Below are positions 25,854-39,221 of a stretch of DNA of 64,000 bases, in pieces. The notes beneath the pieces were generated by a model. That model did no database searches and was not told the DNA's origin. It saw nothing but the letters and a program-made list of their open reading frames with translations. The stretch spans positions 28,948 through 92,947 of IMG/VR virus record IMGVR_UViG_3300011442_000001, one strand, 5' to 3'. The stretch comes from a virus. Taxonomy: Duplodnaviria > Caudoviricetes. A program made the position numbers and the translations under genes. How positions within the stretch are numbered: the first letter of the stretch is position 1; every line of letters begins with the position of its first letter.

Positions 25854-26073
25854 TTATTATTTCACCTTTTATCTTTTCCATAGCCTTTTGTATTTTCATA
25901 GAGTCTTCATGTCTCTTTCTATCCTGTATAATGATAAACAGAGTATAGGCACAGGCTACCCCCAATCCTCTCCACAAGTCTCCTATGAATAGTATTGCTC
26001 CGCAAGCTACACAGGAAAAGAGTACTATGAAGTACATCCAGTTAATTAGTTCCTCAATAAAATGTTTTATCAT
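25846..26073 (-). CDS. Small membrane protein
   Basis: Two hydrophobic segments. Confidence 0.55.
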   Translation of the reverse strand: MIKHFIEELINWMYFIVLFSCVACGAILFIGDLWRGLGVACAYTLFIIIQDRKRHEDSMKIQKAMEKIKGEIINE

Positions 26074-36214: not shown

Positions 36215-36285
36215 AGAGTCCAGTCAGAATTGAACTGACCATTACGGTTTTGCAGACCGCTCCCTAACCGATTGGGTTTAGACTC
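36215..36285 (-). tRNA. tRNA-Cys(GCA)
   Basis: GCGGT-CTGCAAA-ACCGT; U73. Confidence 0.88.
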
Positions 36286-36759
36286 ATTTATTCATTATCA
36301 ATAAAACAATCAAAAGAAATACCAGTACTACAATTCTTATTACCAAGCTTTCGGGTCTTTTTCTTTCTGGAATAGGCCCGTAGCTTTTTGCTATCTTCCT
36401 TGAAGGGGGCTTAATATATTTCATTATTAAAACACCATTAGTACTAAGGGTACTGTAGTTATACAATCAAAGAATAAACATAGAGGCCAATACCACCAAG
36501 GGAACTTATATTTTCTAAATAAAACGCCTCTAGCCAGAAAAAATAAAAACATTCTTCCTCCTAACTATGACAGGTCATGCAGACCCATTGTTCTTTTCTC
36601 ACAATAAACACAATAGAGCGGAGCAAAGATGAATTGAGGTTTCATTTGTAATAAACTTTTCTAAGGAGGTCAGCAAGCTTATCTATCAGAAGTGAATTTC
36701 TATTGTCCAAAAATCTAATAAATCTTTTCATGCAATTTCCTTTATTGGGCATCTAGCAG

Positions 36760-36831
36760 TATCTCACTAGCGACTCGAACGCCAATTGCGAAGTTCGTAG
36801 CTTCGTATCCTATCCTTTGAATGAGTGAGAC
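36760..36831 (-). tRNA. tRNA-Arg(ACG)
   Basis: CGAAG-CTACGAA-CTTCG; overlaps the HNH 3' end. Confidence 0.88.
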
Positions 36832-37178
36832 ATTTTGTATTTTCTAAAATTTCCACGTTTAGCAGTTATTCTTTTATGACAATTAGCACAACGAACTTCA
36901 CACTTTCCTATCTCTTTTTGTAATCGTTCTAAACTACAATTGTATAGACTGGCAATGTTAGCTTCTTTAGTTCCCGTAACGTGGTCAAATTCTAAAACGA
37001 TTGGGTCAGTTTCTCCACAATCAACACACGGATGTTCAGATAGATATTTGTCTATGTGTTCAAAGTTTCTTTTAGTTACAGTTTCTTTATTTCTTCTAGC
37101 CTTATCCAAATAGTATTGTTTATTTTCTTTATAATGCTTTTTTCTATTTTGTAACTGTTTCTCTCTGTCTTTGTACAT
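36810..37178 (-). CDS. HNH endonuclease
   Basis: CVDCG..LEFDHV..KCEVRCANCH. Confidence 0.88.
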   Translation of the reverse strand: MYKDREKQLQNRKKHYKENKQYYLDKARRNKETVTKRNFEHIDKYLSEHPCVDCGETDPIVLEFDHVTGTKEANIASLYNCSLERLQKEIGKCEVRCANCHKRITAKRGNFRKYKMSHSFKG

Positions 37179-37180
37179 AC

Positions 37181-37204
37181 TCTTATCCGTTGAACGATAG
37201 ATGC
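37181..37204 (-). pseudogene. 5' remnant of an earlier tRNA-Arg
   Basis: GCATCTA-TC-GTTCAACGGATAAGA; the complementary 3' remnant TAGATGC-CCA is at 36746-36755. Confidence 0.7.
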
Positions 37205-37321
37205 ATTTTACTTAGTATTTTTTCTTTTGCTTTCAGCTTTGGCAAAAGCAACTCCCAATAAGAATGATGTAAGCATGTAGAAAATGATTTCGCTTATTGG
37301 CATAATTTATTCCTTTCTAGG

Positions 37322-37407
37322 CGGAAGATGAGGGATTCGAACCCCCACCCCGAAATGACGGGGGAAAGTTTAGCAAACTTTTGTGATAACCGTTACACCA
37401 ATCTTCC
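37322..37407 (-). tRNA. tRNA-Ser(GCU)
   Basis: AAAGT-TTGCTAA-ACTTT; long variable arm; G73. Confidence 0.9.
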
Positions 37408-37493
37408 AAGGGGAGGCGTCCTGCCATTATATTAGACGACGAAGGCCAGTTTATGTCACTTCGGGGAGACTCGAACTCCCATTTACTCCAAGG
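37408..37493 (-). other. tRNA halves in permuted order (3' half then 5' half), Glu-like
   Basis: 3' half GGAGT-AAAT-GGGAG-TTCGAGT-CTCCC-CGAAGTG-A, then 5' half GCCTTCG-TC-GTCT..GGC-AGGAC-G-CCTCC-CCTT. Confidence 0.6.
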
Positions 37494-37569
37494 CACACCC
37501 GACAGGATTCGAACCTGCATGTATCCGTTAACCTTTCTGAATGTTAGAAGCATTAGGGTATACGGGTGT
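37494..37569 (-). tRNA. Topologically rearranged tRNA-Arg(UCU)
   Basis: 7-bp acceptor and canonical T-arm; AATG-CTTCTAA-CATT directly after nt 8-14; D-loop-like TAACGGATA lies 3' of the anticodon arm. Confidence 0.7.
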
Positions 37570-37575
37570 ATGGTG

Positions 37576-37647
37576 GGTAACTAACTGGGATTGAACCAGT
37601 TTCCTTCGCTTCACAGGCGAATGTAATACCATTATACCATAGTCACC
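37576..37647 (-). tRNA. tRNA-His(GUG)
   Basis: TTCGC-CTGTGAA-GCGAA; G-1:C73. Confidence 0.9.
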
Positions 37648-38806: not shown

Positions 38807-38879
38807 TGCCACCGGAGAGAATCGAACTCCCACTACTTCTTTAAGAGAGAAGTACACTAAACCGTTATGTTACGGAGGC
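38807..38879 (-). tRNA. tRNA-Lys(CUU)
   Basis: CTTCT-CTCTTAA-AGAAG. Confidence 0.85.
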
Positions 38880-39221
38880 ATTGTAAACAAAAACTTTTAG
38901 TCCTAAACCTTCTGCACATTCTATCATGTGTTTAGTACCCACACTCTGTCCATCCCATATAGCAATCAGGGCATTTGCGTAATGGGCCATCATTCTATTT
39001 CTTCGAATACCTGCACTCTTTCCATACTTAGCCCAGTTAGCAGGAAAGATAACCAAGTCTATCCGGTTCTGTTGAGCATAAAGTTCTCCCCAATGGTCTA
39101 CACCTTTAGCATTTCCGCTAACGACTACATCAATCTCAAAACCGCTTGCTTCTATAGCTTTTTTTACCAAGGTGTAACTTTCTACAGAACGAGAACCTGC
39201 AATAATAACTTTCACAGACAT
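38865..39221 (-). CDS. SLOG/YspA-like (DUF2493) protein
   Basis: IIAGSR, VVSG.AKGVD, W.KYGK.AG.RN, WDG.S.GT.HMI. Confidence 0.85.
   Translation of the reverse strand: MSVKVIIAGSRSVESYTLVKKAIEASGFEIDVVVSGNAKGVDHWGELYAQQNRIDLVIFPANWAKYGKSAGIRRNRMMAHYANALIAIWDGQSVGTKHMIECAEGLGLKVFVYNASVT

What the first reader, a model, noticed from the sequence alone, without database searches (positions are those of the whole stretch)
37494..37569. Rewired tRNA-Arg(UCU) with the D-loop moved 3' of the anticodon arm
Seen: ACACCCG-TATACC-CT-AATG-CTTCTAA-CATT-CAGAAA-GGT-TAACGG-ATA-CAT-GCAGG-TTCGAAT-CCTGT-CGGGTGT-G. The acceptor and T arms are canonical, but no D hairpin precedes the anticodon arm. Instead TAT-ACC can pair with GGT..ATA downstream of it, looping out TAACGG(A). 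This matches the AACGGATA D-loop of the neighbouring Arg remnant. Established: G18G19 docks on the T-loop and A20 is the main ArgRS identity element. Inference: an L-shaped tRNA with different strand connectivity that keeps the Arg determinants, decodes AGA (common in this phage), may evade tRNA-targeting defences and may be missed or mis-called by tRNA finders.
Basis: partly seen in the sequence, partly recalled or inferred. Interest (0 to 1): 0.85.

Follow-up and report, generated by a model that had tools for sequence, protein, structure and literature searches.

The report
Rewired non-cloverleaf phage arginine tRNA
This 76-base phage gene is very probably a working arginine tRNA whose D-arm is built from strands on either side of the anticodon arm, a layout shared by more than 100 phage sequences, missed by tRNA finders, and absent from every paper I could search.

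Summary
The 76-nt element lies on the minus strand at 37569..37494, inside a co-oriented array of 22 phage tRNA genes. It has a normal acceptor stem, T arm and UCU anticodon hairpin, but no D hairpin.

It is not a scrambled pseudogene. Pattern scans of IMG/VR gave 106 distinct relatives. In them the three bases after G-UAU (ACC here) covary with the three bases after GAAA (GGU here): 99.7% of cells are paired, with 18 different triplet combinations.

103 of the 106 carry arginine anticodons (ACG, UCU, CCU, UCG, CCG, GCG). All 103 keep an A straight after the GG of the relocated D-loop motif, which is where the A20 ArgRS determinant sits.

Members lie in phage tRNA arrays on the same strand as their neighbours. 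None shares an anticodon with a cloverleaf tRNA-Arg in the same locus (0 of 37; shuffle P=0.0009). ARAGORN of 106, and Rfam tRNA scores are 22-32 bits against a 29-bit threshold.

Cultured carriers include about 45 Streptomyces phages, phages of Microbacterium, Rhodococcus and Vibrio, a crAss-like phage, and Felix O1.

I found no published description. This scan has already noted the same family on other DNA in more than 200 genomes. Charging and decoding remain untested.

The parts
37563..37569 (-). Acceptor stem, 5' strand (ACACCCG)
   Evidence: Pairs with 37495-37501. The 7 pairs are 98.8% paired across 107 sequences and all 7 show compensatory changes.
37560..37562 (-). Connector U8-A9-U10. 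U8 and A9 are invariant. U10 lies opposite U at 37530 and is mapped to positions 22 and 13.
   Evidence: Column counts. The mapping to canonical numbering is inference.
37557..37559 (-). D-stem-like helix, 5' strand (ACC). It takes the place of canonical strand 23-25.
   Evidence: Pairs with GGU at 37531-37533. 99.7% paired, with both-side changes in 51, 26 and 14 sequences. RNAalifold predicts it de novo. These pairs are among the top mutual-information pairs.
37540..37556 (-). Anticodon arm with its lead-in: C-U, the 4-bp stem AAUG/CAUU, and the 7-nt loop CUUCUAA. The anticodon UCU is at 37546-37548.
   Evidence: The stem covaries in all 4 pairs. Loop positions U33, C35 and A37 are conserved. 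Family anticodons are 103/106 Arg.
37534..37539 (-). Linker C-A-G-A-A-A (family consensus U-N-G-A-A-A). The first base lies opposite U15 as a 27-43-like non-Watson-Crick pair.
   Evidence: GAAA was present in all 19 true members of the first scan, where only its last two A's were required. Two of the three scan patterns required GAAA. Model-found variants such as Trina and Felix O1 differ here. Its tertiary role is inferred.
37531..37533 (-). D-stem-like helix, 3' strand (GGU). It takes the place of canonical strand 10-12.
   Evidence: Same evidence as for 37557-37559.
37519..37530 (-). Relocated D-loop motif and return strand, UAACGGAUACAU. Mapped equivalents: A14 at 37529, G18-G19 at 37525-37526, and A20 at 37524.
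   Evidence: TAA, GG and A are invariant or nearly so, though partly required by the scan patterns. A follows GG in 103/103 Arg members. It is T in three of the five non-Arg members.
37502..37518 (-). T arm: GCAGG, loop UUCGAAU, CCUGU
   Evidence: 98.9% paired, and 4 of 5 pairs show compensatory changes. The loop consensus is TTCRANY.
37494..37501 (-). Acceptor stem 3' strand (CGGGUGU) plus discriminator G at 37494. No CCA is encoded here; CCU follows.
   Evidence: CCA is encoded in 66 of 106 family members.

Best explanation
The element is a gene for a working elongator tRNA-Arg(UCU) that reads AGA, the phage's commonest arginine codon. It belongs to a large family carried almost only by phages, whose core is threaded differently from the cloverleaf. 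After U8-A9 the chain runs straight into the strand that normally forms the 3' side of the D stem, then into the anticodon arm. After the anticodon arm a GAAA linker leads into the strand that normally forms the 5' side of the D stem. The D-loop motif (A14, G18-G19, A20) follows, and a short CAU return joins the T arm. In canonical numbering, block 10-21 has changed places with block 22-45. The secondary structure is therefore a three-way junction, not a four-way one.

Shown here: the helices, their covariation, the restriction to Arg anticodons, and the genomic setting.

Inferred: the fold still makes an L shape in which GG docks on the T loop. RNase P, RNase Z and the CCA-adding enzyme process it through its unchanged acceptor/T limb. 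The host ArgRS charges it through A20, C35, U36 and G73. The permutation probably arose by an internal tandem duplication followed by loss of the outer copies.
For: 1. Homologues with the same layout were found by blastn in Streptomyces phages. They carry compensatory changes in all three classical stems and a different Arg anticodon, ACG.
2. Three IMG/VR scans gave 106 distinct members. Two of the scans left the helix triplets free.
3. The 11-13/37-39 helix is 99.7% paired, with 18 triplet combinations. The overall covariation score is 0.877 against 0.219 in shuffles and at most 0.165 when the partners are slid.
4. RNAalifold finds the same structure unaided.
5. In the anticodon-free census, anticodons were ACG 51, TCT 34, CCT 9, TCG 7, CCG 1 and GCG 1, against 3 non-Arg.
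6. A follows GG in 103/103 Arg members. The discriminator is G or A in 96/106. CCA is encoded in 66/106. The Arg identity set is A20, C35, position 36 and A/G73 (PMC9976931).
7. 75 members have a cloverleaf tRNA within 500 nt, and in all 75 it is on the same strand.
8. 37 members share a locus with a cloverleaf tRNA-Arg, and none has the same anticodon. The shuffle mean is 5.3 and P=0.0009.
9. In Streptomyces phage Mildred21 the only cloverleaf Arg is CCT. Family members supply ACG and TCG.
10. AGA makes up 63% of this phage's Arg codons.
11. The same pattern found only 3 true members in 596 Gb of cellular genomes, and each of them lies in a tRNA array on a MAG contig.
Against: There is no expression, end-mapping, aminoacylation or decoding data. 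The L-shaped tertiary fold is inferred by mapping onto canonical contacts and was not modelled. This phage also has a cloverleaf tRNA-Arg(UCU) at genome 3729-3802, so here the element is redundant rather than filling a gap. Part of the apparent invariance (GAAA, TAA, GGA, CATG) was imposed by the scan patterns. The anticodon stem has only 4 Watson-Crick pairs plus a U-C opposition in this copy.
Confidence: 0.75

Rival explanations
1. It is a conserved tRNA-like RNA of this fold that is not used for decoding. It could be a decoy or sponge for a tRNA-targeting nuclease or for ArgRS, or an arginine donor or primer in a process other than translation.
For: The fold is conserved but no functional data exist. 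This phage already has cloverleaf Arg(UCU) and Arg(ACG) genes. Phage tRNA clusters sit beside RNA-repair and RNA-binding genes in some carriers: Ro-like protein, RNA ligase and nucleotidyltransferase in Mildred21, and polynucleotide kinase plus an RNA-binding protein in Felix O1.
Against: A decoy has no need of six different Arg anticodons tuned to genome composition, a conserved U33/A37 loop, the discriminator, or an encoded CCA. It also has no reason to avoid duplicating the anticodons of cloverleaf Arg tRNAs nearby, yet 0 of 37 do. In Mildred21 the family members are the only carriers of the CGN-reading Arg anticodons ACG and UCG.
Confidence: 0.15
2. The gene is a permuted precursor that is cut and religated at the RNA level into an ordinary cloverleaf tRNA.
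For: Permuted tRNA genes that mature through RNA rearrangement are known in a red alga (my own knowledge). Some carrier phages encode an RNA ligase or a polynucleotide kinase.
Against: The two acceptor strands already lie at the ends of the gene. Restoring cloverleaf order would need two cuts and two ligations inside a 76-nt RNA. The ACC/GGU helix covaries in the arrangement as encoded and gives a stable nested fold. I saw no conserved splice-like motif flanking the blocks, although I did not run a dedicated motif search.
Confidence: 0.03
3. It is a scrambled pseudogene left by rearrangement in a decaying tRNA cluster.
For: tRNA fragments lie right beside it at 37408-37493 and near 37191. tRNA finders reject it.
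Against: More than 100 relatives occur in phages of unrelated hosts, with compensatory changes in every helix and with matching Arg determinants. The window copy scores 83 bits on the family model, against at most 32 bits for cloverleaf tRNAs.
Confidence: 0.02

Closest known systems
Canonical class I bacterial or phage tRNA-Arg (Rfam RF00005), for example this phage's own tRNA-Arg(UCU) at genome 3729-3802 and tRNA-Arg(ACG) at window 36759-36831
   Same: 7-bp acceptor stem, 5-bp T arm with a TTCRANY loop, a 7-nt anticodon loop with U33 and A37, Arg anticodons, a D-loop motif A-A-Y-U-G-G-A-N-A with A after GG, discriminator G or A, similar length (76 nt), and a location in tRNA arrays.
   Different: There is no D hairpin. 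The 5' D-stem strand and D loop lie 3' of the anticodon arm, so the D-like helix encloses the anticodon arm and the junction is three-way. The anticodon stem has 4 pairs plus a U-U or U-C opposition. The variable loop is replaced by a GAAA linker and a CAU return.
D-armless mitochondrial tRNAs of metazoans (for example mt-tRNA-Ser(AGY); reviews PMC7609411 and PMC4013460)
   Same: No D hairpin between the acceptor and anticodon stems, yet they work in translation.
   Different: The mitochondrial forms have lost the D-loop G18-G19 elbow contacts and rely on co-evolved organellar factors. This family keeps the D-loop motif and a D-like helix, has normal length, and would have to use ordinary bacterial machinery.
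Circularly permuted tRNA genes of the red alga Cyanidioschyzon (my own knowledge)
   Same: The order of tRNA segments in the gene differs from the cloverleaf order.
   Different: There the whole gene is permuted, with the 3' half before the 5' half, and RNA processing restores a canonical tRNA. Here the permutation is internal, the acceptor ends are in place, and the encoded order itself forms the conserved fold.
allo-tRNAs with 8/4 or 9/3 acceptor/T branches (PMC5389517)
   Same: A natural non-standard tRNA architecture found by mining metagenomes, including phage sequences.
   Different: allo-tRNAs keep the four-arm cloverleaf order and change stem lengths. This family keeps 7/5 stems and changes the connectivity.
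[quoted passage not shown]
   Same: Both bear on whether bacterial translation can use a non-cloverleaf tRNA.
   Different: That tRNA is artificial. The paper states that all known bacterial tRNAs are cloverleaves and that no natural starting point was known.

Membership tests
Rewired phage tRNA family (covariance model R1 built here) | 3-bp helix between the bases after U8-A9-U10 and the bases after the post-anticodon GAAA linker | tested here: met
   ACC at 37557-37559 pairs with GGU at 37531-37533. The family helix is 99.7% paired with compensatory changes at all 3 pairs.
Rewired phage tRNA family (covariance model R1 built here) | D-loop-like motif UAA..GGA located 3' of the anticodon arm, followed by a short return to the T arm | tested here: met
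   UAACGGAUACAU at 37519-37530.
Rewired phage tRNA family (covariance model R1 built here) | Model score clearly above that of cloverleaf tRNAs | tested here: met
   83 bits. Other members score 44-98 bits and cloverleaf tRNAs at most 32 bits. The window sequence was part of the seed alignment, so its own score is partly by construction.
Canonical cloverleaf tRNA (Rfam RF00005) | D hairpin between the acceptor stem and the anticodon arm (four-way junction) | tested here: not met
   Only 8 nt (UAUACCCU) separate the two stems. The consensus fold is a three-way junction.
Canonical cloverleaf tRNA (Rfam RF00005) | Score at or above the 29-bit gathering threshold, or a call by a tRNA finder | tested here: not met
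   No RF00005 match on its strand at E<=10. ARAGORN gives no call here and 0/106 for the family. Other members score 22-32 bits.
Canonical cloverleaf tRNA (Rfam RF00005) | 7-bp acceptor stem, 5-bp T arm with a T-loop, and a 7-nt anticodon loop with U33 and a purine at 37 | tested here: met
Bacterial tRNA-Arg identity | A20 in the D loop, C35, U or G at 36, and discriminator A or G (PMC9976931) | tested here: met
   By sequence: A at 37524 directly after GG, C35 at 37547, U36 at 37546, G73 at 37494. Equating that A with A20 rests on the inferred mapping.
Bacterial tRNA-Arg identity | Arginylation by ArgRS | not testable with these tools
   This needs an in vitro charging assay or acid-gel or periodate tRNA sequencing.
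D-armless mitochondrial-type tRNA | D arm replaced by a connector, with loss of the G18-G19 elbow motif | tested here: not met
   The GG-A motif and a D-like helix are retained and conserved.
Circularly permuted tRNA gene | 3' half encoded upstream of the 5' half, with the acceptor strands internal | tested here: not met
   The acceptor strands are the first and last 7 nt of the element.
allo-tRNA | 8/4 or 9/3 acceptor/T-stem composition | tested here: not met
   The stems are 7 bp and 5 bp.

The most novel reading that the evidence does not exclude
These are fully working arginine tRNAs (and, in a few cases, isoleucine tRNAs) on bacterial ribosomes. Phages keep the rewired core because it removes the D-arm and variable-pocket surface read by tRNA-targeting nucleases, whether host defences or the phage's own host-tRNA shut-off. 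That would give the phage a private, nuclease-resistant decoding channel.
Probability: 0.2. Interest if true: 0.95.

Novelty: new variant of a known kind. Interest (0 to 1): 0.88.

Why it matters
The cloverleaf is regarded as universal outside mitochondria. A 2024 paper states that all known bacterial tRNAs are cloverleaves and that no natural non-canonical starting point was known (PMC11551756). A 2020 review of non-canonical tRNAs lists nothing like this family (PMC7609411).

A natural, widespread tRNA family with a permuted core would matter in four ways:
- It would show that ArgRS, EF-Tu, RNase P and the ribosome accept a different strand connectivity.
- It would explain apparent gaps in phage tRNA sets and correct mis-annotations.
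- It would supply a ready-made scaffold for orthogonal tRNA engineering.
- It would give a test case for how RNA folds evolve by internal permutation.

Felix O1 and the Streptomyces phages make it directly testable in the laboratory.

Tried and rejected
1. Single-sequence MFE folding gave a different inner pairing that other members do not share. I rejected it in favour of the covariation-supported fold.
2. A9 is invariant while the proposed partner column is T 49, C 40, A 17.
3. I looked for a C14-G33 pair. Both positions are nearly invariant, so there is no evidence either way.
4. Levitt-pair-like covariation between A42 and U53 rests on a single G/C case among three G42 sequences, which is too thin to claim.
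6. Eight literature searches and five paper look-ups found no description of this layout.
7. The Bartonella hit of the genome scan is a chance match. 17 of the 36 hits of the first IMG/VR pattern were also chance matches.
8. I tried to learn which part of an earlier claim 'fell' in the scan's notes, and the look-ups returned nothing.
9. I made no attempt at RNA 3D modelling, because no tool for it was available.

Full report
**Setting**

The window is part of a complete 92,947-bp virus record with direct terminal repeats and 40% G+C. It encodes portal, terminase, DnaB-like helicase, UvsX-like recombinase and a family A DNA polymerase. ARAGORN finds 22 tRNA genes between 34289 and 41320, all on the minus strand.

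The flagged element lies between tRNA-His (37575-37646) and tRNA-Ser (37320-37407).

**Observation**

The element has a 7-bp acceptor stem, a 5-bp T arm with loop UUCGAAU, and an anticodon hairpin AAUG-CUUCUAA-CAUU. Only UAUACCCU lies between the acceptor and anticodon stems. Twenty-one nucleotides, including GGU and UAACGGAUA, lie between the anticodon stem and the T arm. ARAGORN does not call it, and the Rfam tRNA model gives nothing on that strand even at E<=10.

**Homologues**

A blastn search of cultured phages with 401 bases around the element matched only the element itself, at 79% identity. The matches were in unannotated spacers of the Streptomyces phages Mildred21, Braelyn and Navo. 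The alignment shows compensatory changes in the acceptor stem, three in the anticodon stem and one in the T stem. The two connectors are conserved and the anticodon is ACG instead of UCU. Both are arginine anticodons.

I then ran three pattern scans of IMG/VR:
- one fixed the connectors;
- one fixed only the anticodon loop, GAAA and CATG..GTTC;
- one left the anticodon free.

After filtering for the three classical stems these gave 106 distinct members.

**The decisive result**

In the two scans that left them free, the three bases after G-UAU and the three bases after GAAA always match. Examples are ACC/GGT, CTC/GAG, GCC/GGC, CCC/GGG, CGG/CCG, CCG/CGG, CGC/GCG, TCC/GGA, AAC/GTT, CCT/AGG, CGA/TCG, CTG/CAG, ACT/AGT, CCA/TGG, CAC/GTG, ACA/TGT and AGA/TCT.

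On the 107-sequence alignment A2 this helix is 99.7% paired, with both-side changes in 51, 26 and 14 sequences. The whole structure has a covariation score of 0.877, against 0.219 in shuffles and at most 0.165 when the partners are slid. A mutual-information scan ranks exactly these pairs with the classical stems. RNAalifold predicts the same structure without being told.

Pairing of this helix was not a selection criterion. Pairing of the three classical stems was, so only their covariation counts as evidence, not their percentage paired.

**Anatomy and mapping (inference)**

The strand after U8-A9 runs 5'->3' into the anticodon stem, so it occupies the place of canonical 22-25. The strand after the linker runs away from the anticodon stem into U-A-A-Y-U-G-G-A-N-A, so it occupies the place of 10-13 followed by A14, R15, G18, G19, A20 and A21.

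Under this mapping several canonical features recur:
- the most conserved D-stem pair G10-C25 (G-C in 93/107);
- U12-A23 (55/107);
- invariant U8 and A14;
- an A15/U48-like pair;
- a standard T loop able to receive G18-G19.

Block 10-21 has therefore changed places with block 22-45. The three new joins are 9 to 22, 45 to 10 and 21 to 47-48. As far as I recall the crystal structures, each connects residues that are neighbours in the canonical L. That is why an L shape is plausible, but I could not model it. An internal tandem duplication of 10-45, followed by loss of the first A block and the last B block, would produce this order.

**Identity**

In the census the anticodons are ACG 51, TCT 34, CCT 9, TCG 7, CCG 1 and GCG 1, against GAT 2 and TAT 1.

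All 103 Arg members have A directly after GG. The discriminator is G or A in 96/106, and CCA is encoded in 66/106. The bacterial Arg identity set is A20, C35, position 36 and A/G73, with A20 the main determinant for E. coli ArgRS (PMC9976931).

Of five non-Arg members seen, three have U in place of that A: L156, Mildred21 at 73703 and crAss-like cr130_1. Two keep A. The window copy has A at 37524, C35 and U36 at 37547-37546, and G73 at 37494. It has no encoded CCA.

**Genomic behaviour**

Of 105 members in 98 loci, 75 have a cloverleaf tRNA within 500 nt, and in all 75 it is on the same strand. Thirty-seven members share a locus with a cloverleaf tRNA-Arg, and none has the same anticodon. The shuffle mean is 5.3 and P=0.0009.

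Mildred21 has tRNAs for essentially all amino acids, but its only cloverleaf Arg is CCT. Family members there carry TCG and ACG. A further member carries the Ile anticodon GAT, and a divergent UCU copy is annotated tRNA-OTHER.

In the window's phage AGA is 27.6 per 1000 codons and 63% of Arg codons. However, a cloverleaf tRNA-Arg(UCU) also exists at genome 3729-3802, so here the element adds a second copy rather than filling a gap.

**Distribution and annotation**

The anticodon-free pattern found 92 stretches in IMG/VR but only 4 in 596 Gb of cellular genomes. Three of those four are real, and each lies in a tRNA array on a MAG contig.

Cultured carriers:
- about 45 Streptomyces phages;
- Microbacterium phages A3Wally and Zooman;
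- Rhodococcus phage Trina, where it is annotated tRNA-OTHER;
- Vibrio phages, where it lies under 'hypothetical protein';
- crAss-like cr130_1;
- Salmonella phage Felix O1 at 25951-26029, a variant scoring 51 bits that is unannotated and overlapped by an ORF call.

Mildred21's TCG member is annotated tRNA-Phe(gaa), which is a mis-registered anticodon. ARAGORN of 106. Rfam RF00005 scores for six members are 22-32 bits, against 40-68 bits for their cloverleaf neighbours. My model R1 separates members (44-98 bits) from cloverleaf tRNAs (32 bits or less). Subtypes with other linkers exist, for example Trina, Felix O1, L091, L062 and L159.

**Literature and earlier notes**

Eight full-text searches and five paper look-ups found no description. 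PMC11551756 (2024) says all known bacterial tRNAs are cloverleaves. The 2020 review PMC7609411 covers Sec, Pyl, allo- and mitochondrial tRNAs only.

This scan's own notebook shows that the same family was noted on other DNA in more than 200 genomes, with the same reading. One later check priced the bold reading at 55/100, and another said that part of a related claim fell, without detail. I used one of those notes as a lead (Felix O1) and verified it.

**Verdict**

The structure and the family are established by comparative evidence. Function as a charged, decoding tRNA-Arg is the best-supported explanation, at about 0.75, but it is untested. The defence-evasion motive is speculation.

Noticed in passing
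window 37408-37493 (minus strand): The whole spacer between the rewired tRNA and tRNA-Ser looks like a tRNA 3' half (T arm GGGAG-TTCGAGT-CTCCC plus an acceptor 3' strand) followed by a tRNA 5' half (acceptor, D arm and the start of an anticodon stem).
   Followed up: no
window 36759-37215 (minus strand): A 5' fragment of a tRNA-Arg-like gene with D-loop AACGGATA abuts the start codon of a 122-aa ORF (36810-37178). That ORF has a weak HNH match (16.5 bits, below the cut-off), and its 3' end overlaps the cloverleaf tRNA-Arg(ACG) at 36759-36831. It looks like a homing-endonuclease insertion next to or into a tRNA gene.
   Followed up: partly
window 36215-36285 (minus strand): Rfam calls a tRNA here (48.5 bits) that ARAGORN misses. 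By eye it is a tRNA-Cys(GCA) with a 3-bp D stem.
   Followed up: partly
window 38865-39221 (minus strand): An ORF inside the tRNA cluster matches the YspA/SLOG (YAcAr) family (Pfam PF10686, 47.5 bits).
   Followed up: no
L164 401-476 (Streptomyces phage Mildred21, record 91367-91442): This gene is annotated tRNA-Phe(gaa), but it is a rewired family member with anticodon loop CTTCGAA, that is Arg(UCG). It scores 90.5 bits on model R1.
   Followed up: yes
L168 25951-26029 (Salmonella phage Felix O1): An unannotated variant member with anticodon UCU, helix CUC/GAG and a longer linker. The annotated start of ORF45 ('HNH endonuclease', 26003) overlaps it.
   Followed up: partly
L166 3994-4071 (crAss-like phage cr130_1), L167 7704-7780 (Mildred21) and L156 4482-4558: These are rewired members with isoleucine anticodons (UAU, GAU). 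The A after GG is replaced by U, as expected if that A is the arginine determinant. Two other non-Arg members (L140, L155) keep the A.
   Followed up: partly
L167 14770-16422 and 33530 onward (Mildred21); L168 4108-4803 and 22118-23533 (Felix O1): Carrier phages encode RNA-handling proteins in the same genome as their tRNA arrays, several of them beside the array. Mildred21 has a Ro-like RNA-binding protein, a tRNA nucleotidyltransferase and an RNA ligase. Felix O1 has a polynucleotide kinase and an RNA-binding protein. No co-occurrence test was done.
   Followed up: no
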